This document shows, in pieces, positions 3,762 to 63,522 of a stretch of DNA of 64,000 nucleotides. The stretch spans positions 19,028 through 83,027 of IMG/VR virus record IMGVR_UViG_3300047160_014082; one strand, given 5' to 3'. The stretch comes from a virus. Its lineage: Duplodnaviria > Caudoviricetes. The notes below the pieces were generated by a model. The model ran no database searches and had not been told where the DNA came from. It saw only the letters and a program-made list of their open reading frames with translations. The position numbers and the translations under genes are program-made. How positions within the stretch are numbered: position 1 is the stretch's first letter; every line of letters begins with the position of its first letter.

Positions 3762-3794
3762 GTTCGGGTTGGGTTATATTGGTCTGCTATAGCC

Positions 3795-15747: not shown

Positions 15748-15765
15748 CACGAGGTCTTTCAACTG

Positions 15766-17289
15766 ATGATTACTTTGAACAAAGCCCCCGGACAGCGCGT
15801 TCTGGAACTGGGCGGCGGCCAGAATCGTAATGCAGCCACGGACGTCAATGTCGATGTACGTCCCGGGTCGGGTGTAGATATTGTCCATGATCTGAGCAAG
15901 CCCCCAATTCCAGGGCTCAAGGATCAGGATTTCGATGCTGTTATCATGCACTACTCCCTGGAACATGTCACCTATCCAAGGGTGCGCGAGCTGCTCAAGG
16001 AAGTCTGGCGCGTTCTGAAGCCAGGCGGACGATTTGTAATCGTCACGTCTGATACCTACCAGCAATTCCGCTGGCTGGTGGATCATCCGCACGGCTGGGA
16101 CGGGAAGCCGTTCTGGGAAAGGGCTAGTGAGCTGCTGTTTGGCAGTCAAGACTACCCCGAAAACTCCCACAAGTGCTATTTCGATCAGCGCACCCTGCGC
16201 CAGCTGCTGGAAGAAGCCCTTTTTGTGGTGGAGAAGATCGAAAACCACAACCCGCGCAATACGGACCTGGAAGTAGTGGCCAAACGGCCGCATACGCCGG
16301 AGACTTATGTAGAGACAACTTTCAGTTTCAGGGTTCCGAAGCCTCAGATAGGAGTACAGGATCCGCTTGGTTCGGGTGGGATTGGATACTCGCATTCCCA
16401 GATCATCGAACGACCTAAGATTAACCCATTCCAGGAAACAAGTGTGGAAGAAATTGGTGTTATCGAGAAGACTCCTGTTTTCGAGAAGACACCGAACCCT
16501 CTTCCGGGCTTGCCCAGGTCAGTAGATGCACCAGCAGACAGACCGATGGTTCAGGTGGGCCAGTATTGGCTGGAACTGCACCAGAATGATCCCTGGATCA
16601 ACCCGCCGCTGCTGGCCGGAACATACGAAAGCAACGAAACCAAGCTGATCCGAGAGTACGCTCAGAAATACCCCGATCATGCCATACTCGACATCGGAGC
16701 GCATGTAGGGTATTACACCCTGGTCCTGGCGGATGCTACCAAAGGCGCGCGGGGCATGATTGTGGCGTTTGAGGCCAGCCCGGACAACTTCAAGCTGCTG
16801 GAAAAGAACATCCGGCGCAATGATTTGGGTGGCCAGGTGATGGTGTTTAATCTAGCCGTAGCAGACAAGCCCGGCACGATCGGTCTGAGTCGCAATCCCT
16901 ACTGCACGGGGGATACCCGGCCCTGGGAAGCTGGCTTCGGTCCGATGACTCAAGTAGAAGCAATCAGCTTGGATGACATGATAGGTCGGGAATCAAAGAT
17001 TTCAGTCATCAAGCTGGACGTTCAGGGTGGCGAGGTCAAGGCCCTACGCGGCATGAAGGAACTGATCGCTGCCCAAAAGAATCTGGCTGTATTTGTCGAG
17101 TTCTGGCCTTGGGGACTGCAACAGGCCGGCAATACCATTGATGAGTTCATCGAGTGCTTCTGGAAATTCTCCAAGGTGTACGAAATCTGGGAGGATCCCC
17201 CCGGGCTCAAGGAAATAAGGCTCTCCGATCTGCCTACCCTTGTCGCCCCAAACACCGATCATTTTACCAACCTGCTTTTCATCAAGTGA
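15766..17289 (+). CDS. Two-domain methyltransferase (class I MTase plus FkbM)
   Basis: VLELGGG...LEHV...VLKPGG; second domain ILDIGAHVGYY, AFEASPDN, IKLDVQGGE. Confidence 0.85.
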   Translation: MITLNKAPGQRVLELGGGQNRNAATDVNVDVRPGSGVDIVHDLSKPPIPGLKDQDFDAVIMHYSLEHVTYPRVRELLKEVWRVLKPGGRFVIVTSDTYQQFRWLVDHPHGWDGKPFWERASELLFGSQDYPENSHKCYFDQRTLRQLLEEALFVVEKIENHNPRNTDLEVVAKRPHTPETYVETTFSFRVPKPQIGVQDPLGSGGIGYSHSQIIERPKINPFQETSVEEIGVIEKTPVFEKTPNPLPGLPRSVDAPADRPMVQVGQYWLELHQNDPWINPPLLAGTYESNETKLIREYAQKYPDHAILDIGAHVGYYTLVLADATKGARGMIVAFEASPDNFKLLEKNIRRNDLGGQVMVFNLAVADKPGTIGLSRNPYCTGDTRPWEAGFGPMTQVEAISLDDMIGRESKISVIKLDVQGGEVKALRGMKELIAAQKNLAVFVEFWPWGLQQAGNTIDEFIECFWKFSKVYEIWEDPPGLKEIRLSDLPTLVAPNTDHFTNLLFIK

Positions 17290-17295
17290 GACCCG

Positions 17296-18732
17296 ATGAG
17301 CATTACCTGGAAAACTCCGCCGAAGCCGACGATCAAAGTTGTCGAGAAGCCGGACCCTCCAACGCTAGCCGGCTATCCCATCAAGTTCGTGAATAAGCCT
17401 GGCACGTTGGGCGTTTCTGGCCCCATGATCCTGGGCACACTTGATGATATGCGCCCGCCCCAGATCGAGCGGGAACAACTGTTCGACAAGGCATACTTCA
17501 ACGGCGGCGGGAAGGTCGGCGGCTACGCCCGCGAAGGTTACTGGGATTACCCGGTGCATGAAGTCACGGCCCGGCATATCCTGGCTCGTCACCCTGAGTC
17601 GGTACTGGAGCTGGGCTGCGCCCGCGGTTACATCCTGAAGCGCTTACAGGACAAGGGAGTTCCGGCGCTGGGTATGGAAATCAGCAAGCATTGCTATATG
17701 ACGCGCGTTGCTAGTGGAATTTTACAGGGGGATATGTGCCAAACCCCCTGGACGCTTCCATCAGTAGCAGAACAGGAACGGACTTGCCTGGGGGCAAGCG
17801 TTTATACGCTGCCCATTGATCTGTGCTACTCCGTGGCTACTTTGGAGCATATCCCCGAGAATTTCTTGCCGTCCATTATCGGCGAAATGGTCCGTTGCAC
17901 CAAGCGCGGCCTTCATGGTGTGGACTTTGGTGCTAACGATGATGGTTTTGACAAGACCCATTGCACCTTAAGGCCCTATGAATGGTGGCGGGATCTGTTC
18001 AACAAGCTGGCTCCGGGCTACCCCGTGGAAATTGTGGACAAGCAGGAGCTGGAACAGGGCTTTGTGCCCCCGGAGGTGCTTCGTGGCGACGGCAAGCTCA
18101 AGCTCAACATCGGTTCCTTCACGACTATGTTCCACCACGGCTGGATCAACCTGGATATATTCGGAGAGCTTCATCAATTTGCCCAACAGCACGGCTACCG
18201 TTACCAGCAGTGTGATGTCCGGGGAGGTATGCCTTATCCTACCGAAAGTGTAGACCTCATCATGTCCTGCCACATGCTGGAACACCTCACCTACGAAGAA
18301 GGCATCCGCTTCCTGCGCGAATGCCGGCGCGTCCTCAAGCCCACGGGGGCCATGCGCATTCTGGTGCCAGATGCCAGAATGTTGTGCAACATGTATGCTG
18401 GTGAGCAATATGATGGGAGTGAGCTTGCAGAGTTTGATGAAATAAATGATGGCTGTGCCCAGGCGCCCACGCTTCTGGGCAAGCTCTGGGCTCTGCTGCA
18501 CGCGGGCCACTCGGCCGCGTACGATGATGTAACGCTGACGAAGGTTTTGGAGCTGTCCGGCTTCAAGGCTTACCTGTCTGATTTTCGGGGTTCACCAATC
18601 CTTTACGATGATGTCGGAACGGTTTGCAACACAAGCTTTGCGGCTCAGGAAAAGCAGATCCTGGCCGAAACTCTGGACATGCTCCCGTGCCTGACGCTGT
18701 ACATGATGGCCGTTCCCGACACGGGTGCGTAG
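17296..18732 (+). CDS. Two-domain class I methyltransferase
   Basis: VLELGCARG...LEHIP; second domain KLNIGS...WINLD...HMLEH...RVLKPTG. Confidence 0.85.
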   Translation: MSITWKTPPKPTIKVVEKPDPPTLAGYPIKFVNKPGTLGVSGPMILGTLDDMRPPQIEREQLFDKAYFNGGGKVGGYAREGYWDYPVHEVTARHILARHPESVLELGCARGYILKRLQDKGVPALGMEISKHCYMTRVASGILQGDMCQTPWTLPSVAEQERTCLGASVYTLPIDLCYSVATLEHIPENFLPSIIGEMVRCTKRGLHGVDFGANDDGFDKTHCTLRPYEWWRDLFNKLAPGYPVEIVDKQELEQGFVPPEVLRGDGKLKLNIGSFTTMFHHGWINLDIFGELHQFAQQHGYRYQQCDVRGGMPYPTESVDLIMSCHMLEHLTYEEGIRFLRECRRVLKPTGAMRILVPDARMLCNMYAGEQYDGSELAEFDEINDGCAQAPTLLGKLWALLHAGHSAAYDDVTLTKVLELSGFKAYLSDFRGSPILYDDVGTVCNTSFAAQEKQILAETLDMLPCLTLYMMAVPDTGA

Positions 18733-35622: not shown

Positions 35623-38562
35623 ATGCCGATCATCTGGAACCAAAACACCGCTTTTGAACTCAGCTTTAACGGGATCCCTTTCTTTGCTGATGATGCCAAA
35701 GCCTACCGCATGCCCAGCAAGGTATCGGACTACATAGGCCAAGAACGCTCCCCCGTCCAGCAACAGCAGCCCCTGGAAAACCTGGTCGAAGAATTAGACC
35801 GGCTGCTGCCGTTCCGCTACCTGGACGACTACTATGAGGTGGCGTCCTTCCCCGGCCGTAATCTGGCTGGTATTGCGCGGCAGACTGTCGATGAGTACAA
35901 GCTTAATCCGGAAATCAAAATAGGAGAGTTCTTTTATCCCAATGGTGCTTCGCGCTGGAGCGTGTTTCGTGGCCTGATGACCAGCAGCCAGGTACGGGCG
36001 CTGATCCGCACGACCCAGCTACCGATGACCAGCGGCAGCTATTCGACGTCGGGACAACGAGCCGATTCTTTGGGCAACGTCCCGGGTATCTTCCACATCA
36101 AGGCTCTGCCTCTGATCTTTGCACCCAATACACCGCAAGACGCTCTCGGAGCTGCCCCCTATTCGATCATCACCAATATGTACATGCTGCCGCCGCGGCC
36201 CCTGGCGGAACATGGTGGCAACTTCGATGGCCTGTATCTTATCACCCTGGTTGATGAGCGCTTTTGGTGGCAATTCTCCCCCGTGAGCCTGATGGCTCCT
36301 CAATTTCCGCACGACGCTTTCGATACGCTACTAGCACGCCTGACCATCGGCGAATCGAGCTGGCAACAGATCTTGTTCTCCCTGGCCGAAGCTCTGGGGA
36401 TCTTTCTCTTGCTCGATCCCATCGACCCGGCCTATGTCGTACCGGAGCGGGATTCACCGTTCTGGTGCAACTACGAGAACGCTGCCCAGCTGCTGGACGC
36501 GGTAGCGGCTAATGTCGGCGCCGTGTTCGTCCGGAAATTCAACGGCACCTACATTCTGCGCAGCACAACTCAATCTATTTCCACGGTGCAAACCAACCTG
36601 GCCGAGCTGGGCGGGATTGTCACCAGTGGACTTCAGCGCCTGCGCACGGCCGGCGGGGACTTGTTCTCGCCATCGGGTAGTGCCTTACCCGTGGGGGATC
36701 TGACGACGGCGCGGAACTTTGCCATCCCGGCCAGCGTTACGGTGACCTTTCCGAGCTACGTTTACAACGATGCTCCTGTACCTCACTTCTACAACAAACG
36801 CACCATGCCCCCGGATGCTACCCTCTGGCATCAGGAGAGCTTTGGGGGTGTCTGGCCTCTTACAGTTGGTATCAAGTCTGGGGGGCCGTATGTCTCGGGT
36901 CTAGGCGGGACCGGACCGCAACAATCGGGATGGTTGATTTCCGGAGTGACTGGACTGCCCATTGATTTCTCGGGTGGTTACTCCGTCGTCCTGCGCACCA
37001 CGGCCAAGGCGCTGTTCTCGGGGGAACGGGCTTGTGAGCCGGCTTCGGGCTTGACCCATCTGGACGTCCATCCGGCCAATGAAAGCGGCTTGACTGCTCT
37101 GGCAACGGCCCTGGCAGTCAACTACTACACAACCCAGGTTGCCGTAGCTCTGGACGAAGTATTTCCCGGGACCTTTCTTTGGGATCCGGAGGGCTTTCAC
37201 GATCTGCTTTACACCTACTCACCAAGGCAAAGACTAGCGACGACGCGGGTGATGCGCAGTCAGCCCTGGAATCAGAAAGTAGAAGAGTACCAATACGGCA
37301 CACCCCCCTTTAGCGGCTTCGGGGGCACGGTCAAAGGGGTGGGTGGTCCCTTGCCAGCGCAGAGCTGGACGGACAAGGATCGCCTGAGCGGCACCTACGC
37401 CCAGGGCTCGGGCTTCTGTGCGTCGGGGGGTAGTGGACTGATCTTTACCACATTGGCCAACAACTACTTCTCGGGGACGTTCACCTTCATCTTCGTGGAT
37501 GAAGAGACCGAAGCCATTGCCGTTGCTGCTCAGGACTACTTTCCAACGGGAAATCGCTGGAAAGGCCAGATCCTTAGCAACCTGTACCAGGATATCAGTC
37601 TGGCCATCCAGTACAGCGCTACTATATCGGGCTATTGCAATAGCGGTGTACTGGTCTCGGGGATTGACCTAGGGGATCCGAATATCCAATCTGGATATGT
37701 CATAGAGAATTTGTTGTTTGAGGGCACCAGCGGCGGCCGGAATCTGGTAGGGGGTGCGCAGAATCCTCCCTTCCTGTCCATCTACTGGCGCGGTATCGAC
37801 GGCACCAAGCCCTTCCCGATTCATCACAGCGGTGCCATCCTGACCATGATCAACCCGAACACGATGTACGGGGCCAACGTGGTCAAACACGGCAAGATGC
37901 AATACTCGTTCCCGGACGATTGGACCGCGGGCGGCGCCAAGGCGGTGCATGTCGTGCCGCAAATGCAGACTGTGCGCGTCCATAGCGAAAGTGGCATTTA
38001 CATCAACAACCTGCGTCACTACTCGGGGGCCGTATATGCCTACGATACCGCCCAGCGTAGCAGGAACATGTCCGGCCTGTTCACCAGCGGCATAAGTCCT
38101 GTATCTGGCTGGCAAGGCTTATCTGGACAAGTCTACGGAACCGATCCGCATGTTAGCGGCCTGCCCAAACAAGAGCCCTGTTGGATCGTGGAGCGCAACA
38201 ACTACCCGCTGACGTCGGGGATCTATTATGATGGTCAGCTCGTGGGCTATAGCGCCAAGTTCTCGGGGATTCTGGCTTCCGACGAGAGTGGGGGAGCTGT
38301 CTTCCCAGGCACAAATACCCAGGTCGGCAGCGGTAACTATGTGCCTGGCACGGCCATATCGGGCACGGCCCCTGTCTACCTGGTCAACTGGGATCCCCCC
38401 GAAGTGCAGATGGTGCGCATTGTCGGCCCGGGGGATTTTGGCTTTCTGGATGCTTACGTACAAAAGCCAAAGGTCGATCCCGTTACGGGCATCTGGAACG
38501 GTACTGATTGGGTGGATGTGGAACGAATTCTCTTCCAGGATGCGAACTTCACTGGTGGGTAG
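35623..38562 (+). CDS. Large tail/baseplate protein, SG-rich
   Basis: 979 aa; about 36 SG dipeptides; tail module position. Confidence 0.55.
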   Translation: MPIIWNQNTAFELSFNGIPFFADDAKAYRMPSKVSDYIGQERSPVQQQQPLENLVEELDRLLPFRYLDDYYEVASFPGRNLAGIARQTVDEYKLNPEIKIGEFFYPNGASRWSVFRGLMTSSQVRALIRTTQLPMTSGSYSTSGQRADSLGNVPGIFHIKALPLIFAPNTPQDALGAAPYSIITNMYMLPPRPLAEHGGNFDGLYLITLVDERFWWQFSPVSLMAPQFPHDAFDTLLARLTIGESSWQQILFSLAEALGIFLLLDPIDPAYVVPERDSPFWCNYENAAQLLDAVAANVGAVFVRKFNGTYILRSTTQSISTVQTNLAELGGIVTSGLQRLRTAGGDLFSPSGSALPVGDLTTARNFAIPASVTVTFPSYVYNDAPVPHFYNKRTMPPDATLWHQESFGGVWPLTVGIKSGGPYVSGLGGTGPQQSGWLISGVTGLPIDFSGGYSVVLRTTAKALFSGERACEPASGLTHLDVHPANESGLTALATALAVNYYTTQVAVALDEVFPGTFLWDPEGFHDLLYTYSPRQRLATTRVMRSQPWNQKVEEYQYGTPPFSGFGGTVKGVGGPLPAQSWTDKDRLSGTYAQGSGFCASGGSGLIFTTLANNYFSGTFTFIFVDEETEAIAVAAQDYFPTGNRWKGQILSNLYQDISLAIQYSATISGYCNSGVLVSGIDLGDPNIQSGYVIENLLFEGTSGGRNLVGGAQNPPFLSIYWRGIDGTKPFPIHHSGAILTMINPNTMYGANVVKHGKMQYSFPDDWTAGGAKAVHVVPQMQTVRVHSESGIYINNLRHYSGAVYAYDTAQRSRNMSGLFTSGISPVSGWQGLSGQVYGTDPHVSGLPKQEPCWIVERNNYPLTSGIYYDGQLVGYSAKFSGILASDESGGAVFPGTNTQVGSGNYVPGTAISGTAPVYLVNWDPPEVQMVRIVGPGDFGFLDAYVQKPKVDPVTGIWNGTDWVDVERILFQDANFTGG

Positions 38563-47151: not shown

Positions 47152-47802
47152 TTAGCTTGCAGCCGTATTCTGAAATCGAGGCCAACTAAGAGCCGACTTC
47201 CAACAAGCAACCATGGTTCTTAATTCTTCCCAAGTGGCATTGTTCTTAATGGTATTTGCCCGATAGCTGATGACCCACACGTTCCCAGGAATGTAGTCCT
47301 TCAAAGGGTCGATCCGATCTACCGAAGCCGTAAATCTTCTCCCATACCCGCGTGCTCCTCTACCATAAATAAGTTCTACTCCAAGCAGAGGGCAAACTTC
47401 AGGAAGAGGAAGCAAATCGCCAACCGAAATTGTACACTTCATTCCTTTCTTAGCAGCAGACTTTCTACACCCCCTAATAGCCTGCTTGGCCCACATTTCA
47501 GGAATCTGCCGCACCCTTTCTCTCCATTTCTCTTGAGCCCGTTTGTTGCTCCTAGCTGTATCGGCACGCTCGGCTCTGTAAGCAAAGCTGCATTCTCTTG
47601 AACAAAACTTTGGGGTCTTGCGCTGAGCCTCCGAATCGGATCGCTCGAACTTATTCTTACAGTATTCACAGAAAAAAGTCCGAAAGCTGGTCCGTATGGA
47701 TTCCCAATAACACTCAAGGGAGCAGTACACAGCAGCTTTCGCAGGTTCTCCACAAGTCGGGCAAAGTTTTCTTTTAACTTTTTTCTCCCTAAAAACTTTC
47801 AT
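47152..47802 (-). CDS. Zn-finger HNH-like (His-Me) endonuclease
   Basis: YCSxxC repeats; CPLLG...SVDRIDP..DY.PGNVWVISYRANTIKN; AT-rich. Confidence 0.8.
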   Translation of the reverse strand: MKVFREKKVKRKLCPTCGEPAKAAVYCSLECYWESIRTSFRTFFCEYCKNKFERSDSEAQRKTPKFCSRECSFAYRAERADTARSNKRAQEKWRERVRQIPEMWAKQAIRGCRKSAAKKGMKCTISVGDLLPLPEVCPLLGVELIYGRGARGYGRRFTASVDRIDPLKDYIPGNVWVISYRANTIKNNATWEELRTMVACWKSALSWPRFQNTAAS

Positions 47803-47915
47803 TTTTTACCTCCAGGGATCCATTCCTCCCGGCCATCGGGCAGCTGAAACAGAAAAGCCTTGCTGGTAGACCGAAGGATTTTTTCCACTTCGATGTAGAC
47901 CCATTCATCAGGCAT
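47799..47915 (-). pseudogene. N-terminal fragment of the split small gene
   Basis: MPDEWVYIEVEKILRSTSKAFLFQLPDGREEWIP followed by GGKK*. Confidence 0.55.
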
Positions 47916-48252
47916 CGAAATTCTCCAGTTTGATGGATTCCATACGGTATTGCCAGGTTTTCCGTTTCCCGCGCTTGCCCTTCTTGGCCCAGCTGACGAT
48001 CCAGATGAGTCCTCCATGTTGTAGCCAAAGCTTGGCACGTGGCTCGGCGAGAATCTTTTTCCGCCGAGCCACGTGGTTCGTGCCACTGGTAGCTTGGACA
48101 CCAACAATACTGGTAGCGTCCAGCACAACCAGATCGATGAAGCCAAACAAATCCTGGCGCACGCGCGCATGGGGGTTCCAGCGCTCGACAATAGCGACCG
48201 TCCAGCCGTTCTTGCGAAACAATTCCAGAGTTCGTTGTGTAGGGCTGGACAT
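47908..48252 (-). CDS. PD-(D/E)XK nuclease (resolvase/VRR-NUC-like)
   Basis: QRTL...GWTVAIVE...DLFGFIDLV...VQAT. Confidence 0.7.
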   Translation of the reverse strand: MSSPTQRTLELFRKNGWTVAIVERWNPHARVRQDLFGFIDLVVLDATSIVGVQATSGTNHVARRKKILAEPRAKLWLQHGGLIWIVSWAKKGKRGKRKTWQYRMESIKLENFDA

Positions 48253-48254
48253 TT

Positions 48255-48740
48255 TTACTCTTCCACAACAGCATCAATGGCTTCGATCACCGCGGCGAAT
48301 TCATCCAGATGAGAAATGCGCAGGCGCACCCCCTTGAGCAACCGTCGTGCCTCGTTGAGAGCCTGTTCGCGTAGATCACTATTGGTCATGACCGTTTCAA
48401 CCGGAAGATAGCCGCGGCCATCTTCCGTGGTCACGCACAGATAGGCGGCGCACATCTTTTTGTCGCCTTGCTGGTCTTCATAGACCAGCCGGCAGCAGTG
48501 GATGATGCTCCGGGCCTGGTGCTCTTGCCAGCGCCGCGCGGCTCTGTTTTTGTTCCAATCAATCAGCTCATGGGCAGGGGAGCGGGGATCCTTGGCTTCA
48601 TCAACGAAGCGCGAGGCGCTGACCTGTCCGTCCCGCGCCAAGCGGTCGATCATACGTCCAATGGCATTAGCCTCCGCCTTGCCCGGCCGGAAACCCTCTG
48701 CCCATTCCCACTGCTTCTGTTTCGCCTTAGTCGTCGTCAT
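48255..48740 (-). CDS. Uncharacterised protein directly downstream of array 1
   Basis: AAGGGG RBS; SPAHELIDWN..AA..W..HQARSII pattern. Confidence 0.7.
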   Translation of the reverse strand: MTTTKAKQKQWEWAEGFRPGKAEANAIGRMIDRLARDGQVSASRFVDEAKDPRSPAHELIDWNKNRAARRWQEHQARSIIHCCRLVYEDQQGDKKMCAAYLCVTTEDGRGYLPVETVMTNSDLREQALNEARRLLKGVRLRISHLDEFAAVIEAIDAVVEE

Positions 48741-48762
48741 GATGTTCCCCTTCTTGCTGTCT

Positions 48763-48791
48763 AAAAGGGGGAGGGCACCAAAGCCCTCCCC
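48763..48791 (-). terminator. Intrinsic terminator at the 3' end of array 1
   Basis: Minus strand GGGGAGGGC-tttggt-GCCCTCCCC followed by C and TTTT. Confidence 0.7.
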
Positions 48792-48804
48792 GAAACCAAA
48801 GGTG

Positions 48805-49828
48805 GCAAGACCCGCCGGAGCCCGTCTAGCCTTGCCTTGACGCCCCATGTCTTGGAAAACCAGCTAGACAGGTCTAGCCGTGCCAAGACTCGGCATGGTG
48901 AGCCAAGTAAAACCAGCCATGTTCAGACCTGTTCGGTCCGGACTTGCCGTGCCTTGTAAAACCTGCCGAGACCCAACGAGACTTGGCCGGTCCTGGACAG
49001 CCACCGCGCTCCCAGCCGAGTCGTGTAAAACCAGCCGGACAGGTCTCGGCTCGTCTTGTCTCTACTCCATGTGCCTAGCCGTGTAAAACCGGCCTGGGCG
49101 CGTCTTGTCTCGTTCTGCCTAGACGATGCTTGCCCTGTAAAACCAGCCAGGCCGGGACTAGCACCGGCCGGACCCGGCTCGACTAGGCTCGCCCTATCTT
49201 GTTCAACACATCAGGCCTCGTAAAACCCTCTCGACCAGTCTGGCCTTGTCTTACCAAGACACTCGTGGTCCGCCACGCAAAACCGGCCAGGCCGGGACAA
49301 GCCGCGGCCCGCCTTGGCGAGGCTCGGGGTTTCTAGTCTCGTAAAACCTGCCAAGTCAAGACCGTACTTGCCTAGGCGGGGCGCTACATGCCTTGTAAAA
49401 CCGGCCGTAGCTCGACCTGCCGACACCAGTCTTGACGTCCCATGCCTAGTAAAACCAGCCCAAGACATGGCGCGCCATGTCGCCTCTTGCCCAGACTCGT
49501 CTCGTAAAACCTGCCTGGACATGCCGCGGCCCGTCCTGACGCTGACGACCCGTGACACACCTCGCCTAGAAAAAGTAAGGCCAGACAGGACTGCCCTTGG
49601 CAGGCCCAAGCTTGTACAGCCCTGTCTAGCCGTGCCGAGTAAAACCTGCCGAGACCCGGCTTGCCTTGCCTAGGCCCTACCCGGCCTGTCTTGACGCTAC
49701 CAGCCATGTAAAACCGGCCTGGGCGCGCCATGTCTCGACTAATCAGGTCTCTACTCGCCTTGTAACATCCCAGCTTGGCCCGACGAGGCTCAGCGCCCCG
49801 TGGCATAACCGGACCAGGAAGACAACAA
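48805..49828 (-). repeat. Array 1 of NN-G(G/N)Y pentamer units, each closed by GGTTTTAC (about 17 units); putative guide-like ncRNA array
   Basis: Plus-strand anchor (G[T/A/C/G]AAAACC) at 48854, 48907, 48956, 49025, 49083, 49137, 49220, 49277, 49341, 49395, 49449, 49504, 49639, 49708; degenerate copies at 48805, 49569, 49762. Spacings are mostly 49/54/64/69 +/-1. Confidence 0.9.
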
Positions 49829-50551
49829 CTACAGCCCTTGCACTTGCCACAGCCCCAGATCCCCGGTGTTGCTCTCGGGAGAAGAGGGGCGCATTTCGCA
49901 CACCCCGACATTCATACCGGCCCGGGCGCACAGATTCATCAAGTGCTCCAGACTCAGGATGTCGGCATCGAAGGAAATCCGCAGCCGGGCCGCCCATTCG
50001 GTGTATTCGGCTCGGAAGCGCACATCCGCTGTGCGCCCGTTGTTGATTCGTACCATGTCCTCGCGCATGTGTGGTTTGCCGTCGATCAGCACACAGCGCA
50101 TGCCCTCGGTGCTGATGAAATTGAAACGCACGAAGAACAGTTGCTTGGCGAAGGTCATGGTCAGATCAGGCACAAAACGGCAGGCCTGAACCATCGCATC
50201 CTTGAACGCTCCAGCCGGGACGCCGTGTTCCCCGCGCGGGCCGCGGTACATGCTGGCTTCGTAGCACGCCTCCGGATCCTTGAACTCCTGCTTCACCACC
50301 TTTCCCATCTGCTTGGCCAAAATCATTTCCCGAGCCTTGGCATCCCAGGCATGGGTGACCAGGGGAGTGATACCGACGATATCGATGTGAGCTTCCAGAC
50401 GGCGCGGCTTGGGGATGACGATCCCTGTCATCTTCTCCGCCTTCTTGGAAGGCGGCTTCTTGGCCTTGCCGTTGCCATTAGTGCTTGGAAGGACCGCTTC
50501 CAGACGATTTGTCGCTTCGACCTTCTTGCTCGTCTTCTTGCTCGTAGCCAT
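49829..50551 (-). CDS. RAMP/Cas7(Csm3)-like protein between the two arrays
   Basis: IDIVGITPLVTH first strand; GVPAGAFKDAM (cf. IPGSSLKG); C-terminal Gly loop GMNVGVCEMRP...GDLGLWQV. Confidence 0.7.
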   Translation of the reverse strand: MATSKKTSKKVEATNRLEAVLPSTNGNGKAKKPPSKKAEKMTGIVIPKPRRLEAHIDIVGITPLVTHAWDAKAREMILAKQMGKVVKQEFKDPEACYEASMYRGPRGEHGVPAGAFKDAMVQACRFVPDLTMTFAKQLFFVRFNFISTEGMRCVLIDGKPHMREDMVRINNGRTADVRFRAEYTEWAARLRISFDADILSLEHLMNLCARAGMNVGVCEMRPSSPESNTGDLGLWQVQGL

Positions 50552-50574
50552 GATGTAACCCTTTCAATTGAAAA

Positions 50575-51281
50575 AACAAACCAAGACTCGTTCACACATT
50601 ACGGCACATGCCTCTTCTCGTCCCTGCCCGTCATGTAAAACCAGCCATGTTCTGTCGGTTCACCTCCAGGCCTCATAAGCCATGAAAAACCGGCCCTGTC
50701 CTGGCAAGACGTGCCGGGACTTGTTCTGCCTGACCTTGCCTCGAAAAACCTGCCCAAGTCTCGTCATGCCGATACAGCGCTCGTTCCAGCCAGTCAGTAC
50801 AGACCCGGCCCAGTAAAACCTGCCGTGACATGGACTGCCGGTTCGCGCCCAGACTACCTGGGCCATGTAAAACCCGTCCTCGCCACGGCTCGGCCACACC
50901 CTTCCTAGCGCTACCGGTCGCGTAAAACCGGCCGTGTCAGGTCTGCACACGCCGACACAGTACGGGACGATCCTAGTAAAACCGGCCGTGTCATGTCATC
51001 GCTAGCCACCTCCTATCCAGACCATACGAGTAAAACCCTCGCGACACGCGGCTAGCCCTAGCTTGCCAGCGCCCGCCAGAACGCCCCTAGCCGTGTAAAA
51101 CCGGCCGTGCCTTGGCGCCGTCTCGCCCCGTCTCGCCATGCCCTGTCCCATCGCGCCATGTAAAACCTGCCTTGACTAGGCTGGACGATGCAAGTCCAGG
51201 CCTGATATGCCACGTAAAACCGGCCGCGACTTGGCCGGACATGCCCTCACAGAACCTGCCGATACAGGCCGGGAAAAACTC
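50575..51281 (-). repeat. Array 2 of NN-G(G/N)Y pentamer units (about 13 units)
   Basis: Anchors at 50635, 50684, 50743, 50813, 50867, 50922, 50976, 51030, 51095, 51160, 51214; degenerate at 50575 and 51273. Spacings 49, 59, 70, 54, 55, 54, 54, 65, 65, 54. Confidence 0.9.
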
Positions 51282-52316
51282 CTACTGGTAACGGGTTTTG
51301 CGATTCACCGAACACGCTTTCTCGACTTCGCGCCAACGCTCAACCACGAGCTGGCGCAGCTTGGGCTCTTCGTTGTTATTCTGGATCTGATGGATGAGTT
51401 TTTCGGTATCCCCCTTGAAGCTAAATTCGGGGGCGGTGACTATTTTCTCCTTTCCGGTCCAAACACCCTCATCAACCAGGAAGTAGATACACGACGCCAG
51501 CTCATCGAAGCCGTAGCGCTTGCGAAAGGGTAGCACCACGTCCCAGTCGAGCCCGGCCGTGGAATTCTTCTTGACCTGGATGCGCAGCAACTGGCCTATG
51601 GTGCGATCTTTGCCCAGGACCTTTTTCTTCAGCTTGCTCTTGACCGAGAACCACAGTTCCAGATTGGCATAGAAGGTCAGCGCCTGACCCCCGGAGCGCG
51701 TTTTGGGATTGAAGACGGCTTTGGGACCGATGTTTTGTCTTGTTTGCTTGATGATCAAGAGAATGCTGTTGCTGGGCTTGACGAACCGATTAACGACCAC
51801 CCCCAGGCGCTCGGAATTCATGCGGGCTTTTTCAGTTTTGTAACCCTGGGCTTTCGCATCGGCTGCTTCCAACGGATCTTCACTGTCCAACAGGTAGATA
51901 CATGGCCCTTGAGAACAGAAGCGCTGTACGTTGTCATAGAAATCCCCCAACGATTTTGATGGCCCATTCTGGTGTGGTGAAATCATTCGTTTTAGGAGTA
52001 CCTTCCCGTAGTAGCGCTCGAAATCCATCAGGTCACCGCGGCCCTCCGTATTGTCGTAGATGAGAGTGTACTTGTCGTACGCGGAATCCAGGCAGGCTTC
52101 GGCCAGCGCTTGCACGCCCAGCCAAGATTTGCCGGCCTGGGAATCACCAACGATCAGGTTGTAGTAACCTGGCACCAAGCCCAGGTCAGGATCCCCCGAA
52201 CACGCCAGGTTCAACATGGTCGAGCCCAGGCTCAGGCCCTTGAGCCGGGGGGGCAGCTTCTTGACGCCTAGAAGCTTTTTCTTCAGAGCTTCAATACTGG
52301 CTTTGTTGTTGCTCAT
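51282..52316 (-). CDS. recA: RecA/UvsX-like recombinase
   Basis: GSTMLNLAC, GDSQAGKS Walker A, LLDS, KQTRQNIG, RSGGQALTFYA. Confidence 0.9.
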   Translation of the reverse strand: MSNNKASIEALKKKLLGVKKLPPRLKGLSLGSTMLNLACSGDPDLGLVPGYYNLIVGDSQAGKSWLGVQALAEACLDSAYDKYTLIYDNTEGRGDLMDFERYYGKVLLKRMISPHQNGPSKSLGDFYDNVQRFCSQGPCIYLLDSEDPLEAADAKAQGYKTEKARMNSERLGVVVNRFVKPSNSILLIIKQTRQNIGPKAVFNPKTRSGGQALTFYANLELWFSVKSKLKKKVLGKDRTIGQLLRIQVKKNSTAGLDWDVVLPFRKRYGFDELASCIYFLVDEGVWTGKEKIVTAPEFSFKGDTEKLIHQIQNNNEEPKLRQLVVERWREVEKACSVNRKTRYQ

Positions 52317-57748: not shown

Positions 57749-59001
57749 ATCCCCTTTCGTTGGATCCCTTCCCGGACACGCTTCTTGATGAGTTCGATGT
57801 ACTTAGGGTTTAGTTCACACAACACCGCAGCTCGACCCAGGCGCTGGGCCACGGCCGCGGTAGTACCCGATCCTCCGAACGGATCACACACGGTACAGGG
57901 AACCGTTTCCAGCTGGGCATACTTGGGAGACTGGAACTCCCAAGCTTCCGACCATCGGGTTTCCCTATCCCTGTAGGTCAACCAACGCTCGGAGAAGTCT
58001 TTTATGGTTTCCTTGGCCTTCTGGACTGGGGGTCGGGGCGGATCAGCGATCAGAGGAATCCCATAGCATTCACAGCCTGGGCGCCAACCTAGCGTTTTGG
58101 TTTCGGTCACATGGCGCTGGGGATCCCGGTTGCCGATGACACTGCCGGCCTTGCCGGCAACCTTGGTGTCTTTCCCCGGCCGGGTTGTTTTGCGAGTATG
58201 TTTCACCACACGTTCCCAGGGGGCACCACACTTGGGACAACAGCCCTTCTTGCTGGTGCCGGCTTTGATGCACAGCTCGGGCAGGGCTTCGGAAAATACG
58301 GCAAAGTGGGATCCCTTATAGCTCTCCGTGCTAATGGTCCATACGGACCTACGCACAGCCTTATCACCAGAAGGACTAATAGTTTTGATAGCTTCAGCAT
58401 CGAAGTAGTATTTCCGGTTCAAGGTCAACTGGAATACGTGTTCGTGGGCCTTGATACAGCGGTTGCCTACGCTTTCGGGAATGGGGTTGGGCTTGTGCCA
58501 AATGTTGTCCATGCGCAGGATCCAGCCATCATCCTGAAGGGCGAAGGCTATACGCCAGGGGATCCCCAATAGGTTCCCCTCCGGAACGTCTGACGCCGCC
58601 CGGCTCGGGCCAATGTGTCCTTCGATGCCCTGATCGCGGCCAGCTGTCCAGCGCTGGCCCTTGTCGTGTTCGCGCTCATCAAAACTATGGGGGGTCAAGC
58701 GGTGAGTATTAGCCGTAGCATAGGTATCACCCAGGTTCAAGAACAATACCCCGTCATCGCGGAGCACTCGTTTGATGGCCTGGCAGACCTTGACAATGGC
58801 TCGCACGTACTCATCAGGGGTCTTCTCCCTGCCAATCTGGCCTTTGCCACACTCGTAATCGCGCAATCCGTAGTAGGGAGGGCTGGTCACCACCATCTGG
58901 ATACTCTTAGCAGCTACGATCCTCAAGCAGCGTATGGCATCCCCGCAATAGATCCGCGTCCGACCCAGCTTGGTCAAGGTCAGTTTTGTTCTAGTTGCCA
59001 T
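57745..59001 (-). CDS. N4/N6 DNA methyltransferase (beta class) with Cys-containing insertion
   Basis: VTSPPYY, FLNLGD, WHKPN, SVWTI, DPFGGSGTT. Confidence 0.92.
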   Translation of the reverse strand: MATRTKLTLTKLGRTRIYCGDAIRCLRIVAAKSIQMVVTSPPYYGLRDYECGKGQIGREKTPDEYVRAIVKVCQAIKRVLRDDGVLFLNLGDTYATANTHRLTPHSFDEREHDKGQRWTAGRDQGIEGHIGPSRAASDVPEGNLLGIPWRIAFALQDDGWILRMDNIWHKPNPIPESVGNRCIKAHEHVFQLTLNRKYYFDAEAIKTISPSGDKAVRRSVWTISTESYKGSHFAVFSEALPELCIKAGTSKKGCCPKCGAPWERVVKHTRKTTRPGKDTKVAGKAGSVIGNRDPQRHVTETKTLGWRPGCECYGIPLIADPPRPPVQKAKETIKDFSERWLTYRDRETRWSEAWEFQSPKYAQLETVPCTVCDPFGGSGTTAAVAQRLGRAAVLCELNPKYIELIKKRVREGIQRKGM

Positions 59002-60440
59002 AGTCCCTTCTCGTTCTTCGCCCAGGACTTCTTCAGATACCAGTTGTCCCGAGCGACTTCAGTTTCGATCACCATCGGCACATTGATCCATGGCCAGTGC
59101 TTAGGAAGGCGCCGGCCTACGATGTCGTCGGTGATTTCCAGGTACTGGTCGATTTCTTTCTCGGGCGTATCGGACAAGAGGCTGTCGTGGATCTGCCCGA
59201 TGAGTAGAGTTTTCATCTTGTACTTGTCGATGGCTTTTTGCGTCTCGATGGCCGTCCAGAGCAGACAGTGAAAAGCCGAGCCCTGGATCGGGTAGTTGTT
59301 GACCTGATTGCGGCGGTACATGCCTTCGGCCTTGAAGCCGGTCAGATAACCGAACCAGCCTAATTTACGATACTCCTGGTAGAAATCTTCCTTCCATTGG
59401 GCGTAAACCTTGAAACGCCGCCCCCAGAAGTCCCCTTCGATGGCCTTGACGTGATAGGCAAAGGTCCCTTCCGCGGGCTCAGCATCGGCAGCGCATTCAC
59501 CTAGCTCGGTGATGCCCTTTTTCTTGAGCCATTGCTTGACCGGCCGGCCGTCCAATACTACATGCTCGTCGTCCAGGGCTTCCCAGATGGCCGGGGCGCA
59601 CTGATACCAGACGCTGCCATAGAACTGGGGGAAAACAAACTGGTTTTTGGCTATATGGCGCAGGGTCTTCTTGGTTTCTGCTACTTGCTTATCGAATAGG
59701 AAGAACAGTTGCTTGGCCACGTCCCGATGCATGTCTGATTTTGGATCCGTGACATACTTGATCATCACGGGATCTTTGTGATAGCAACAGGACATCACCA
59801 CTTCAATGCCTTTGAAATCGCGCTCGACCAGCACCCGGCCCTTACGCGGGATAATCGCTCGGCGCACGACCTCCCCTTGCTTGGGATCCCGTACGGGTAG
59901 GTTTTGGAAATTGAACGCTTGCGAACTAGAGCGATAACTGCGGGCGCCTCCCTTCTCGGTGTCTTTGCCCGTACCGCCGGCCAGGTTGAAGAAGGGATGC
60001 ACCAGGCCATAGACCAGCTCGCGGCGCAGGCCGGTCAAATACGTGCCCTTGACCTTCTCTAGCTTGCGCAGCTCTTCGACCATGCGCAGGTAGGGATGGT
60101 CGATCTTGGCCAGAACGTCTTTATCACTTCGATAGCGGCCGGTCTTAGTTCGCCCCCATTTCTTCTTGTACTTGAAGCCCAGATCACCGAAGAAGACGTC
60201 AACGAGCTGCACGGGACTTTCAAAATTGGTTTTGGTGCCAAAGCGCCGTCGCCAGGGCTTAACAACGTCGGTGTGGTTGGTCAGTTCCTTTTTGAGTTTG
60301 CCGATACGAGCGTTGGTTTCACGTTCGGCTTTATCAAGATATTCGACATCTATTTTGATGCCATTTTGCTCCATGCGGGCCAGGACGAGGGTGCCCGCAT
60401 GGAACAGTTGATAAGCCGCCTTGGTGTCCGGCTTGATCAT
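58980..60440 (-). CDS. polA: Family A DNA polymerase, polymerase domain only
   Basis: MEQNGIKID, NFQNLP, DFKGIEV (motif A), RHIAKNQFVFPQFYG (motif B), NYPIQGSA, QIHDS (motif C); no exonuclease domain. Confidence 0.9.
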   Translation of the reverse strand: MIKPDTKAAYQLFHAGTLVLARMEQNGIKIDVEYLDKAERETNARIGKLKKELTNHTDVVKPWRRRFGTKTNFESPVQLVDVFFGDLGFKYKKKWGRTKTGRYRSDKDVLAKIDHPYLRMVEELRKLEKVKGTYLTGLRRELVYGLVHPFFNLAGGTGKDTEKGGARSYRSSSQAFNFQNLPVRDPKQGEVVRRAIIPRKGRVLVERDFKGIEVVMSCCYHKDPVMIKYVTDPKSDMHRDVAKQLFFLFDKQVAETKKTLRHIAKNQFVFPQFYGSVWYQCAPAIWEALDDEHVVLDGRPVKQWLKKKGITELGECAADAEPAEGTFAYHVKAIEGDFWGRRFKVYAQWKEDFYQEYRKLGWFGYLTGFKAEGMYRRNQVNNYPIQGSAFHCLLWTAIETQKAIDKYKMKTLLIGQIHDSLLSDTPEKEIDQYLEITDDIVGRRLPKHWPWINVPMVIETEVARDNWYLKKSWAKNEKGLWQLEQN

Positions 60441-61478: not shown

Positions 61479-62096
61479 CTAAGCACGAGCCGGGGTAATG
61501 CCTGTCTGGCCCTGATACTTGGCGCCACGCTTGGCGTAATCACGTTCGGGGGCGAAGCTCAGGCGCTCGAATTCCAGCTGGGCGATCCCTTGCATGGCGT
61601 AGATCCGCGCCGGGGCCGGGCTGACGTTGCCGATTTCGATGGTTAGATGGCCTTCCCAACCAGGCTCCAGGGGGGTGGTGTTGACCAGGACGCCGCAGCG
61701 GGCATAGGTTGATTTACCTACGCAGCGGGCCTTGAGTAGACTCGGGATGCGAATGTACTCGTAGCTGCGCACCAGGGCATAGCTATGCGGAGGTAGGTCA
61801 AACCACTTGTCCATAGTGATGCTTTCAAAAACCTTGGCTTCATATTCCTTGCCCCCGCTCTTGAAAGCCTTGGGGTCGATGACCAACGAGCTGGTGTTCT
61901 TGAAAACCAATAGCTCGGGGGACAGGCGCAGGTCATAGCCGGCGGCGCTAAGACCATAGCTAATAGATCCTTCTTCTACCGGGCCGGGCCAATCCTTCCA
62001 CCAGTCTTCCACGAACGGGTCGATCATGGGCTTACCGTCCGGCATGTACAGCTTAAGGGTGCAGAAGTTGCGGATTTCTATGTCGGTCAGTATCAT
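61479..62096 (-). CDS. dcd: dCTP deaminase
   Basis: SYGLSAAGYDLRL, VGKSTYARCG, TPLEPGWEGHLTIEI, GIAQL, KYQGQTG. Confidence 0.95.
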   Translation of the reverse strand: MILTDIEIRNFCTLKLYMPDGKPMIDPFVEDWWKDWPGPVEEGSISYGLSAAGYDLRLSPELLVFKNTSSLVIDPKAFKSGGKEYEAKVFESITMDKWFDLPPHSYALVRSYEYIRIPSLLKARCVGKSTYARCGVLVNTTPLEPGWEGHLTIEIGNVSPAPARIYAMQGIAQLEFERLSFAPERDYAKRGAKYQGQTGITPARA

Positions 62097-62250: not shown

Positions 62251-63522
62251 CTAAGTAACGTTCCAACATGGCCGGTGCAACCCCCTCTTAGATTGGATCC
62301 GGGCGACCATCCACTCCATCAAACTGTCCATGGCGTTGTATTCCAACAGCGCCCGCAGATCGCATTGCTTGATGCGATTCTCACTGTTGCTGTCCGGAGC
62401 TTTCAAGTAGGGCTTGACTCCGGAATCCCATTCGTCCTGACCGAGCAGCACAAAGGCTTGAAACTTAATACTGGTGATCCCAGGGGTGTTTTGTAGGACA
62501 TGCGCCCCCAGCATCGTGTCCTGCGCCCAGTTGCGCACATAGGAGCCCAGTTTTGTCCTGGTCCAACGCTCCTCAAACTTCATGTTCGAAGCGATCTTCG
62601 GCACGAGACCGCGCAGAAAATCCTTCATTGGCTGGACAATGGCTCCCGTCCAGGGGAAAGCGATGGACAGGGTGCCGTCACTCATAGAGCAGGTATAGAT
62701 AATCCCTTTTGTCCTGTCGGGCTTAAGCATGTTAGTTTCATAGTCAAACGCTATCGGGATCTGCTTGGCGATGGCGTTCGTGACCATTTTTGTAATAGCA
62801 AGGGCCGCAGCTACCGGATCGAACAGAACCATCAGCTTGCTCTTGAAATCGGGGGGCTTGTCCCAGGGACGACCCTTAAGAGCAAAGGCGCGCTTGAGAG
62901 CCCGGCGGAAGTCCAGATGCATAACAGTGTTCTTGCTGCCTTGACTTGACTCATCGGCTTCGGGATCATCCTTGTGCAAGAGGGCAGCGGGGTGCCAGGT
63001 CGGGCAAATCCAGGCATTCAAGCGTTGGTGGGGAATGCGCCAGTTGCGCCAACGCTCGGGTGTGCCGATATCCTCTTTCCAGAGCCAGCCTAGTACAGAC
63101 TTCATCGGGCTGGCGCCGAGCAAGACGATTACCCGGGGTTTCAACTCCTTGATGGTCTGAATTACCGCCGGCCGGCAATAGCCGATTTCTAGGTTTGTGG
63201 GGGTGCGGTTCTTACCGTCGGGATGCTTGGGACGGCAGATGTTACTGTTGGTGATCCAGCAATCCCGGCGCAGGTTCACACCGATGGAATGAAGAACTTC
63301 CTGAAGTTTCTGGCCAGCAGCACCAACGAAGGGGTGGCCACAACGATCTTCATTGGCCCCGGGGGCTTCACCGATGATAAGAACTTCGCGCTTACCCTTA
63401 CCGTCTACTTTCATCTTCGGGCTATGACAGGTCTTGTGCAGACCACAAGCGCCACACTGGGGTACAAGCGCCAGCGGAGTACGGCCCTGGGCCGGGGCCG
63501 TACTCGTGTAAAAGCTTTTCAT
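62251..63522 (-). CDS. Family-4 uracil-DNA glycosylase fused to a 3'-5' exonuclease (N-terminal part of a SPO1-like PolA)
   Basis: CGACGL, GEAPGANED, FVGAAG, CRP, TWHPA; then AFDYET (ExoI), SNMKFE (ExoII), DTML..HVL, YNAMD (ExoIII). Confidence 0.85.
   Translation of the reverse strand: MKSFYTSTAPAQGRTPLALVPQCGACGLHKTCHSPKMKVDGKGKREVLIIGEAPGANEDRCGHPFVGAAGQKLQEVLHSIGVNLRRDCWITNSNICRPKHPDGKNRTPTNLEIGYCRPAVIQTIKELKPRVIVLLGASPMKSVLGWLWKEDIGTPERWRNWRIPHQRLNAWICPTWHPAALLHKDDPEADESSQGSKNTVMHLDFRRALKRAFALKGRPWDKPPDFKSKLMVLFDPVAAALAITKMVTNAIAKQIPIAFDYETNMLKPDRTKGIIYTCSMSDGTLSIAFPWTGAIVQPMKDFLRGLVPKIASNMKFEERWTRTKLGSYVRNWAQDTMLGAHVLQNTPGITSIKFQAFVLLGQDEWDSGVKPYLKAPDSNSENRIKQCDLRALLEYNAMDSLMEWMVARIQSKRGLHRPCWNVT

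What the first reader, a model, noticed from the sequence alone, without database searches (positions are those of the whole stretch)
48255..51281. Candidate RNA-guided system: a RAMP-like gene between two arrays of NN-GGY pentamer units
Seen: about 1.7 kb of non-coding DNA on both sides of one 240-aa gene has strict 5-nt periodicity on the minus strand (the direction of the flanking genes). An almost invariant G-starting triplet (GGC, GAC, GTC, GCC) alternates with a freely variable dinucleotide, and an 8-nt anchor GGTTTTAC closes each unit. Example 49448->49395: TA-GGC-AT-GGG-AC-GTC-AA-GAC-TG-GTG-TC-GGC-AG-GTC-GA-GCT-AC-GGC-C-GGTTTTAC. There are about 30 units, nearly all different. Established: Cas7-type RAMPs bind RNA in fixed-length repeating segments. 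Inference: each unit is a processed RNA in which one RAMP subunit binds each pentamer, and the 8-12 NN dinucleotides (16-24 nt) together spell a discontinuous target address, for example against competing phages or host genes. I recall a recent description of this architecture under the name VIPR, but cannot verify that here. If it is unrelated to that, it is an undescribed system.
Basis: partly seen in the sequence, partly recalled or inferred. Interest (0 to 1): 0.96.

Follow-up and report, generated by a model that had tools for sequence, protein, structure and literature searches.

The report
Phage VIPR guide-RNA locus, relaxed scaffold
This soil-phage locus is a genuine example of the VIPR systems first described in 2026 (a small Cas7-like protein plus arrays of five-letter-repeat guide RNAs): a real but already published kind of system, here with about 25 different guides and an unusually loose repeat scaffold.

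Summary
On the minus strand, 25 GGTTTTAC-type anchors (21 exact; 2 exact elsewhere in 64 kb) divide 1.8 kb on both sides of a 240-aa gene into units of 49-69 nt, mostly 5n+4. The units consist of G-N-Y + NN pentamers.

The gene is a Vipr homologue. A 16-sequence family profile hits the solved SUSP1 Vipr chain (E 9e-9; hhalign 97.6%), and the model has a Cas7/Csm3 fold (Z about 11).

A conserved 161-aa accessory gene follows. 43 of the 48 loci examined have adjacent pentamer arrays. The contig is a virus record with no Cas1 and no CRISPR-type repeats.

So this is a VIPR system (bioRxiv 10.64898/2026.04.26.720920), of the 'staggered array' design rather than the SUSP1 type II design: no long structured tail and no Vap1 homologue.

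Its own peculiarity is a nearly free middle base in the triplet, the most relaxed of 43 arrays. I could not link this to the W-to-M change in the G-loop.

No targets were found: nothing on its own contig, and no exact hits for four guides in public collections. No RNA data exist.

Earlier notes of this scan record VIPR loci on other DNA in at least 253 genomes.

The parts
50635..51281 (-). Array A: 11 vrRNA-like units upstream of vipr, each closed by GGTTTTAC (two by GGTTTTTC)
   Evidence: Anchors ending at 51214, 51160, 51095, 51030, 50976, 50922, 50867, 50813, 50743, 50684 and 50635. Constant-phase G-N-Y/NN parse. A 264-nt contig from another soil metagenome (51105-51368) is identical.
49829..50551 (-). 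vipr: 240-aa minimal RAMP (Cas7-like). Residues 1-47 are a disordered Lys-rich tail and 48-240 the RAMP core. The G-loop reads G-V-C-E219-M220-R221 and the thumb carries R180.
   Evidence: Family profile vs PDB 36pp_D 'SUSP1 Vipr protein': E 9.2e-9, next hit E 1.2. hhalign vs SUSP1 Vipr: 97.6%, E 3.7e-12. AlphaFold2 pLDDT 80.3. VIA-align Z 11.1, rmsd 3.6, 155 aligned residues to Csm3. phrog_4652 at E 1.8e-18.
48800..49775 (-). Array B: 14 anchored units downstream of vipr, plus one terminal unit (48853 to about 48800) with a degenerate anchor. The unit 49638-49504 (135 nt) looks like two fused units.
   Evidence: Anchors ending at 49708, 49639, 49504, 49449, 49395, 49341, 49277, 49220, 49137, 49083, 49025, 48956, 48907 and 48854. 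Identical contigs from other soil metagenomes at 49337-49602 and 48922-49072.
48763..48791 (-). Terminator-like hairpin (9 G+C-rich pairs, 6-nt loop, then CUUUU) between array B and the accessory gene
   Evidence: Present in both the MFE and the centroid fold. The 81-nt region as a whole is no more stable than its shuffles (z -0.9) and the simple terminator scan did not list it, so this part is weakly supported.
48255..48740 (-). Conserved accessory gene (vap-like), 161 aa: an N-terminal winged-helix-like domain (weak support) and a C-terminal helical hairpin
   Evidence: phrog_15946 at E 1.7e-22. Homologues lie just downstream of vipr or its array in 9 of 10 loci (the tenth is truncated) and also in L011. 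Model pLDDT 89.8. Only Z 5-6 matches to winged-helix domains such as MecI, IdeR, Fur and SelB. No similarity to SUSP1 Vap1.

Best explanation
The locus is a VIPR (Viral Interference Programmable Repeat) system on an 83-kb soil phage. It has a vipr gene for a minimal Cas7-like RAMP, two flanking arrays that encode about 25 different vrRNAs, and a conserved accessory (vap-like) gene.

Inferred mechanism, by homology to the SUSP1 system. The arrays are transcribed on the minus strand with the surrounding genes. The transcript is cut at or next to the short U-rich anchor into RNAs of about 49-69 nt. Vipr protomers polymerise along each RNA, one per pentamer. They flip out the three scaffold bases and present the two NN bases. 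The 9-13 dinucleotides of a guide then pair with double-stranded DNA, skipping one target base per dinucleotide (footprint 3n-1, about 26-38 bp). The bound filament blocks transcription, most likely of a competing phage, satellite or prophage, or possibly of a host gene.

The array design is the published 'staggered' one. Units follow each other without a long structured tail and each unit is one base short of a whole number of pentamers. This phage's own feature is that internal pentamers keep only G at position 1 and a pyrimidine at position 3, while the pentamers next to the anchor stay canonical GGC.

Shown here: the anatomy, the homology, the fold and the conserved linkage of gene and array. 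Inferred: transcription, processing, binding rule and targets.
For: Anchors and pentamer periodicity are far above chance.

The only PDB sequence hit of the protein is SUSP1 Vipr. With a family profile it is significant (E 9.2e-9, next hit 1.2), and hhalign gives 97.6%. The model has a Cas7/Csm3 fold over residues 48-240 (Z about 11).

The residues that read the triplet in SUSP1 (paper .720927) align to conserved residues here: D177=E219, R179=R221, R138=R180.

43 of the 48 loci examined, the window included, carry at least 25 in-phase pentamers next to the gene. They come from IMG/VR contigs, a cultured mycobacteriophage and a Xanthobacteraceae MAG.

The 5n+4 unit length recurs in relatives that use different anchors. 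It matches the legend of fig. S18, 'staggered arrays, 1 nt overlapping'.

An accessory gene is conserved beside vipr.

The record is viral, with no Cas1 and no CRISPR-type repeat. There is no self-targeting on its own contig, as in the published control.

My array parser recovers the four experimentally defined SUSP1 vrRNAs.
Against: There is no RNA evidence for this locus or its clade, so transcription, processing sites and RNA ends are unknown.

No target was found for any guide, so the 1-nt-skip rule is untested here.

The scaffold's middle base is nearly random, and the residue that stacks on it in SUSP1 (W178) is methionine here. The binding geometry could therefore differ from the solved structures.

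The accessory protein has no detectable similarity to SUSP1 Vap1, and its fold assignment is weak (Z 5-6).

The homology to SUSP1 Vipr is detectable only over the C-terminal ~68 residues at sequence level.
Confidence: 0.87

Rival explanations
1. A decaying or inactive VIPR locus: the gene and arrays descend from a VIPR system, but the relaxed scaffold means the RNAs are no longer loaded or used.
For: The middle base of the triplet is nearly uniform, the least constrained of 43 arrays. A few units change phase or have degenerate anchors. The G2-stacking tryptophan is replaced by methionine. No targets were found.
Against: The ORF is intact and the acid, arginine and thumb arginine that read the triplet are conserved. 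G at position 1 (about 90%) and the pyrimidine at position 3 (about 85%) are well kept over 315 pentamers. 21 of 25 anchors are exact. All 25 guides differ while the scaffold is held, which is the pattern expected under selection. Methionine at this site recurs in 8 of 160 family members, including the two closest homologues.
Confidence: 0.06
2. An RNA-guided system of the same ancestry that targets RNA (as type III Cas7 complexes do), or that reads DNA with a different gap rule from the published 1-nt skip.
For: The closest solved folds are RNA-targeting Csm3/Cmr4 subunits. The free middle base and the W-to-M change could alter the geometry. No target is known that would fix the rule.
Against: Sequence homology is to Vipr specifically, not to any CRISPR Cas7. 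The published family-wide analysis reports DNA targets on both strands for several types. The accessory protein looks like a DNA binder, though weakly.
Confidence: 0.05
3. The periodic DNA acts as DNA, for example as protein-binding iterons or a recombination or replication element within the phage replication module, and its position next to a RAMP gene is incidental. Alternatively the tracts are protein-coding.
For: The locus sits among replication and recombination genes: a UvsX/RecA-like gene upstream, HNH and DNA polymerase genes nearby. ORF finders call spurious ORFs across the arrays, and one such tract is annotated as a protein in a mycobacteriophage.
Against: A 5-nt period with a one-base phase slip per unit cannot be coding. 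The linkage of array and RAMP gene, on the gene's strand, holds in 43 of 48 loci with otherwise unrelated neighbours. The same architecture yields protein-bound small RNAs in the published systems.
Confidence: 0.02

Closest known systems
VIPR systems with 'staggered' vrRNA arrays (bioRxiv 10.64898/2026.04.26.720920, fig. S18 legend)
   Same: A Vipr RAMP gene sits next to back-to-back pentamer-repeat units with no long tail. Unit length is one base short of a multiple of five, which fits vrRNAs that overlap by 1 nt. This holds here and in relatives with other anchors.
   Different: The figure itself and the type assignment could not be read, since no supplementary files are held. I therefore cannot say whether this clade is the one shown, or which of types I-VII it belongs to. 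Here the internal triplets are G-N-Y rather than GGY.
Type II VIPR of Escherichia phage SUSP1 (KT454805.2; PDB 36pp) and the Pseudomonas fulva prophage
   Same: The Vipr protein is homologous, with a conserved G-loop acid and arginine and a conserved thumb arginine. It is phage-encoded. Guide arrays lie on both sides of the gene, a small accessory gene is present, and there is no self-targeting.
   Different: SUSP1 has 4 vrRNAs of about 100 nt, each with a roughly 40-nt structured tail and strict GGT triplets. This locus has about 25 units of 49-69 nt with an 8-nt anchor and a free middle base. The accessory protein is unrelated to Vap1. The array lies between vipr and the accessory gene. W178 is replaced by M220.
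Class 1 CRISPR-Cas backbone subunits (Cas7 family: Csm3, Cmr4, type VII Cas7)
   Same: The RAMP fold with RRM core, thumb and glycine-rich loop is shared (Z about 10-11 over 145-156 residues). Both polymerise along a guide RNA with periodic base flipping (established for Cas7; shown for Vipr in paper .720927).
   Different: There is no repeat-spacer array, no Cas1 and no other cas genes nearby. The period is 5 nt with 2 pairing bases, against 6 nt with 5 pairing bases. Sequence identity is only about 10%.

Membership tests
VIPR system | A Vipr protein: a minimal single-RRM RAMP homologous to the described Vipr family | tested here: met
   Profile vs PDB: SUSP1 Vipr at E 9.2e-9, next hit 1.2. 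hhalign 97.6%, E 3.7e-12. Cas7/Csm3 fold, Z 11.1.
VIPR system | G-loop and thumb residues that read the scaffold triplet (SUSP1 D177, W178, R179, R138) | tested here: inconclusive
   D177=E219, R179=R221 and R138=R180 are conserved, but W178 is M220. Across 160 family members this site is W 93, G 31, H 10, M 8, N 7, so W is not required in the family.
VIPR system | vrRNA loci: tandem 5-nt units of a conserved triplet (GGY 'or a related consensus') alternating with hypervariable NN, at least 4 units | tested here: met
   About 315 in-phase pentamers in 25 units. Position 1 is G in about 90% and position 3 is C/T in about 85%. NN columns are hypervariable. The middle base is free, so the consensus is G-N-Y.
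VIPR system | No CRISPR array and no adaptation genes; a minimal two-gene locus | tested here: met
   No 20-mer occurs 3 or more times on the 83-kb contig. No Cas1 was found, while the control genomes were positive. Neighbouring genes carry no Cas families. The record is estimated at 73% complete, so absence applies to the held part only.
VIPR system | An adjacent accessory gene (vap) | tested here: met
   The 161-aa gene is conserved beside vipr in 9 of 10 loci and in L011. Which of vap1-6 it is, if any, could not be tested. It is not Vap1.
VIPR system | Encoded mainly by phages or proviruses | tested here: met
   The tools class G000 as a virus record. PHROG hits cover phage replication genes. 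Homologues occur in cultured Mycobacterium and Gordonia phages.
VIPR system | Arrays expressed and processed into discrete RNAs that co-purify with Vipr | not testable with these tools
   No RNA run is listed for this sequence. This needs small-RNA sequencing and pull-down.
VIPR system | Guides match natural DNA targets under the 1-nt-skip rule, and do not match the system's own contig | tested here: inconclusive
   No self-target above shuffled guides. No exact hit for 4 guides in public collections. No excess over the null in 1.78 Mb of fetched DNA. A mismatch-tolerant search of large collections was not possible.
VIPR type II (SUSP1 / P. fulva clade) | vrRNA with a conserved, structured 3' tail of about 40 nt after the repeat tract | tested here: not met
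   Units are separated only by the 8-nt anchor within a conserved core of about 17 nt. The SUSP1 control shows the long tails. There are no Rfam hits, so no hammerhead either.
VIPR type II (SUSP1 / P. fulva clade) | vap1 accessory gene | tested here: not met
   hhalign of the accessory-protein alignment against SUSP1 Vap1: probability 0.08%.
CRISPR-Cas class 1 | Repeat-spacer array with repeats of about 24-40 nt, plus cas operon genes | tested here: not met
   none found on the held contig.

The most novel reading that the evidence does not exclude
This phage and its closest relatives (G-loop E-M-R) represent a VIPR variant in which the protein reads only G1 and Y3 of the scaffold. The repeat is then G-N-Y-N-N, written YNNGN in the authors' notation, a form not among the alternatives named in the paper's text (NNNGG, YNNNG, NNNNG). 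It is combined with short-anchor staggered arrays and an accessory family unrelated to Vap1. The free middle base might be neutral, or it might carry extra information such as contact with the skipped target base.
Probability: 0.3. Interest if true: 0.5.

Novelty: new member of a known kind. Interest (0 to 1): 0.3.

Why it matters
VIPR is a very recent class of RNA-guided DNA-binding system, proposed as the ancestor of the CRISPR RAMPs and of interest as a compact programmable repressor.

This locus adds a well-preserved natural example with a large repertoire of about 25 distinct guides in two arrays. It comes from an uncultured soil phage and uses the less studied 'staggered' array design.

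Two points could be useful to people working on the class.

1. The scaffold's middle base can be almost free in a locus that otherwise looks selected. That bears on how much of the GGY triplet the protein really needs.
2. Across 43 arrays, the residue that stacks on that base in SUSP1 does not predict whether the base is conserved. Specificity for it must lie elsewhere.

The homologues in cultured mycobacteriophages such as Donkeykong, where the array is annotated as a protein gene, offer a tractable host for testing this clade.

None of this changes the picture of what VIPR is.

Tried and rejected
1. **Covariation between the G-loop residue and the scaffold's middle base.** I proposed that W178-to-M220 explains the free middle base. 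Across 43 arrays the G fraction at that base has median 0.71 for W-type (range 0.02-0.98, n=28), 0.73 for G-type (n=8) and 0.74 for H-type (n=5). One W-type locus (L264) uses G-T-T. Rejected as a general rule. Only one M-type array, this window, could be examined.

2. **Targets.**
   - Own contig, skips 0-3: no guide beats its shuffles.
   - Three 13-NN guides trimmed to 22 specified bases: 0 exact hits in IMG/VR.
   - One full 10-NN guide: 0 hits in the metagenome collection.
   - All guides against 1.78 Mb of fetched loci, including relatives' VIPR loci: mean best match 0.761 against a null of 0.763.
   - Only exact patterns can be scanned in the public collections, so the published criterion of at least 80% NN match could not be applied there.

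3. **Reading guides as the first two letters of codons**. I could not assign any decoded peptide to a known motif without subjectivity. NN usage does not correlate with codon positions 1-2 of the phage's own genes (r about 0).

4. **Close relatives via the anchor.** Three anchors at unit spacing gave more than 230 loci in two collections.

5. **Host.** A single-protein scan of bacterial genomes found nothing. An alignment scan found only a Xanthobacteraceae soil MAG at 36% identity. The host remains unknown.

6. **RNA evidence.** No RNA holder is listed. The laid DNA contigs from four soil metagenomes are short, low-depth and identical to the window, so they say nothing on array turnover.

7. 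**Accessory protein.** No Pfam family, no PDB sequence relative, no Foldseek match at E <= 1e-3, and only Z 5-6 winged-helix rows.

8. **Other.**
   - No Rfam family in the arrays.
   - The promoter scan found no more than its shuffles did.
   - The paper's supplementary tables are not held.
Full report
**What is in the sequence**

Read on the minus strand, the 240-aa ORF at 49829-50551 is flanked by two non-coding tracts: 50552-51281 (730 nt) and 48741-49828 (1088 nt).

The 8-mer GGTTTTAC occurs 21 times exactly and 4 times with one mismatch between 48854 and 51221, always on the minus strand. Only two exact copies occur in the rest of the 64-kb window. Successive anchors are 49, 54, 59, 64 or 69 nt apart, i.e. 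5n+4, with a few exceptions.

Aligned to the anchors, the preceding 45 nt show a strict 5-nt period. G holds one position (69%) and C the position two further on (60%). Summed information is 1.25 bits, against at most 0.22 in 1000 random samples of the window.

A phase-tracking parse puts almost every unit in a single phase with this layout:

- AC, then two variable bases
- 8-12 pentamers of G-N-Y plus two variable bases
- a canonical GGC-nG pentamer
- GTT-tt

The next unit starts one base early.

There are 25 anchored units, 11 upstream of the gene and 14 downstream, carrying 9-13 variable dinucleotides each. One has 20 and is probably two fused units. One has 6 after a phase break. All 25 differ, and every NN column except the last holds 9-14 different dinucleotides.

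**The protein**

Pfam finds nothing. PHROGs places it in phrog_4652, of unknown function.

Against all PDB sequences the single hit at any threshold is 'SUSP1 Vipr protein' (36pp), weak on its own at E 1.4. A profile of 16 homologues raises it to E 9.2e-9 while the next hit stays at 1.2. After I fetched phage SUSP1 (KT454805.2; the tool confirmed the identity), hhalign gave 97.6% probability and E 3.7e-12 over the thumb-to-G-loop region.

The AlphaFold2 model (pLDDT 80; residues 1-47 disordered and lysine-rich) matches only Cas7-family RAMPs: Csm3, Cmr4/6, type VII Cas7 and Cas7-11 domains. The best match has Z 11.1, rmsd 3.6 and 155 aligned residues.

The cryo-EM paper names the SUSP1 residues that hold the GGY triplet. 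In the alignments:

- D177 corresponds to E219
- R179 corresponds to R221
- the thumb R138 corresponds to R180
- W178, which stacks on the second G, is M220 here

The first three are invariant in the family.

**Linkage of gene, array and accessory gene**

I examined 48 loci, the window included. They were IMG/VR contigs found with three different family members, the cultured mycobacteriophage Donkeykong, and a Xanthobacteraceae soil MAG. 43 carry at least 25 in-phase pentamers next to the gene. The other five gave too few pentamers to call.

Relatives use other short anchors (GGCAGTCA, GGCAGTC, GGCAGGAA) but mostly keep the 5n+4 unit length.

The 161-aa ORF after array B (48255-48740; phrog_15946) has homologues directly beside vipr or its array in 9 of 10 loci and in the MAG. 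Its confident model (pLDDT 90) gives only weak winged-helix-like matches (Z 5-6) plus a C-terminal helical hairpin. It shows no similarity to SUSP1 Vap1.

The contig is classed as a virus record (linear, about 73% complete, 55.7% G+C). It has no Cas1 and no CRISPR-type repeat. The arrays hold no Rfam family, so there are no hammerheads.

**What it is**

Three 2026 preprints describe VIPR. Its features are:

- a minimal RAMP (Vipr)
- vrRNAs of tandem GGY/NN pentamers
- protomers polymerising along the RNA and flipping out GGY
- NN dinucleotides pairing with dsDNA with one skipped target base
- transcriptional silencing of competing phages and satellites
- seven types, six accessory gene families and several array designs

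One of those designs is 'staggered arrays' in which adjacent vrRNAs overlap by 1 nt.

This locus meets every membership feature that can be tested on sequence. It fits the staggered design and not type II (SUSP1), which has long structured tails and Vap1. My parser recovers the four SUSP1 vrRNAs with their tails as a positive control.

Transcription, processing at the U-rich anchor, filament assembly and the 1-nt-skip rule are inferred for this locus by homology. None is shown here.

**What is particular to this locus**

The middle base of the triplet is nearly uniform (G .33, T .29, A .21, C .18 over 315 pentamers). That makes it the least constrained of the 43 arrays. Position 1 stays about 90% G, and the pentamers next to the anchor stay GGC.

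I tested whether this follows from W178 to M220. Among 160 family members the site is W 93, G 31, H 10, M 8 and N 7. However, arrays next to G-type and H-type proteins keep G at the middle base as well as W-type ones do, and one W-type locus uses G-T-T. The simple covariation is rejected, and the cause of the relaxed scaffold is open.

In the authors' notation the repeat here would be YNNGN. The methods text does not list that form among the alternatives, but I could not read their supplementary data.

**Targets and expression**

No guide matches its own contig better than shuffled guides under any skip rule, as in the published control.

- Three long guides (22 specified bases) had no exact match in IMG/VR.
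- One complete 10-NN guide had no exact match in the metagenome collection.
- The guides show no excess over shuffles in 1.78 Mb of fetched DNA, including relatives' VIPR loci.
- Decoding guides as codon letters gave nothing I could name objectively.

The host is unknown. Only soil metagenome DNA runs hold pieces of the locus. Those pieces are identical to the window, and no RNA run is listed.

A G+C-rich hairpin followed by U residues lies between array B and the accessory gene, but support for a terminator there is weak.

**Verdict**

This is a real, intact-looking VIPR system, so it is a new member of a kind published in 2026. The family is large: 7,241 cluster representatives at E <= 1e-3. 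Earlier notes of this scan report VIPR loci on other DNA in at least 253 genomes. Those notes are unchecked, and I used them only as leads.

Interest is modest. The points worth passing on are the free middle base, the negative covariation result, the accessory family unrelated to Vap1, and the mis-annotated arrays in cultured mycobacteriophages, which offer an experimental handle on this clade.

Noticed in passing
L010:2499-2822 (Mycobacterium phage Donkeykong NC_051648.1, about 36889-37212): The pentamer array of this cultured phage (GGC in 52 of 62 triplets) lies under the annotated 'gp48 hypothetical protein'. gp49 is the Vipr homologue and gp50 the accessory-gene homologue. The same probably holds for the other 26 Mycobacterium and 5 Gordonia phage records that matched.
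   Followed up: partly
L264 (IMGVR_UViG_3300037504_000365), flanks of 3501-4070: A Vipr homologue with the usual G-loop tryptophan sits next to an array whose triplet is G-T-T (68 of 110) or G-T-C. G at the middle position is only 2%, so this scaffold is specific but not GGY.
   Followed up: partly
L011:4600-6500 (Xanthobacteraceae MAG DASXJB010000068.1): About 1.9 kb of array lies between vipr and the accessory gene. GGC (169) and GCA (109) triplets often alternate, which suggests a 10-nt super-period. The anchor is GGCAGGAA and the spacing 5n+4.
   Followed up: no
window 49775-49708 vs 49136-49083; 49707-49639 vs 49024-48956: Two pairs of units share their three anchor-proximal dinucleotides but differ elsewhere. 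Several other pairs share the last one or two pentamers. This hints that units arise by duplication, or by recombination near the anchor, followed by diversification.
   Followed up: partly
window 58980-60440 (-) and 62251-63522 (-): The family A DNA polymerase is split into two ORFs. They match consecutive parts of phrog_17 (positions 475-826 and 832-1239) and are separated by about 1.8 kb that contains another ORF (61479-62096). This could be an inserted mobile element or a naturally split polymerase.
   Followed up: no
window 47908-48252 (-) and 47152-47802 (-): Directly downstream of the accessory gene lie a 114-aa ORF with no family hit and no homologue in any related VIPR locus, then an HNH / endonuclease VII-like gene (phrog_3322). 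They do not appear to belong to the system.
   Followed up: partly
window 13252-18729 (+): The phage carries a UDP-glucose dehydrogenase-like gene and two large methyltransferase-domain genes. This may be a DNA or surface modification module.
   Followed up: no
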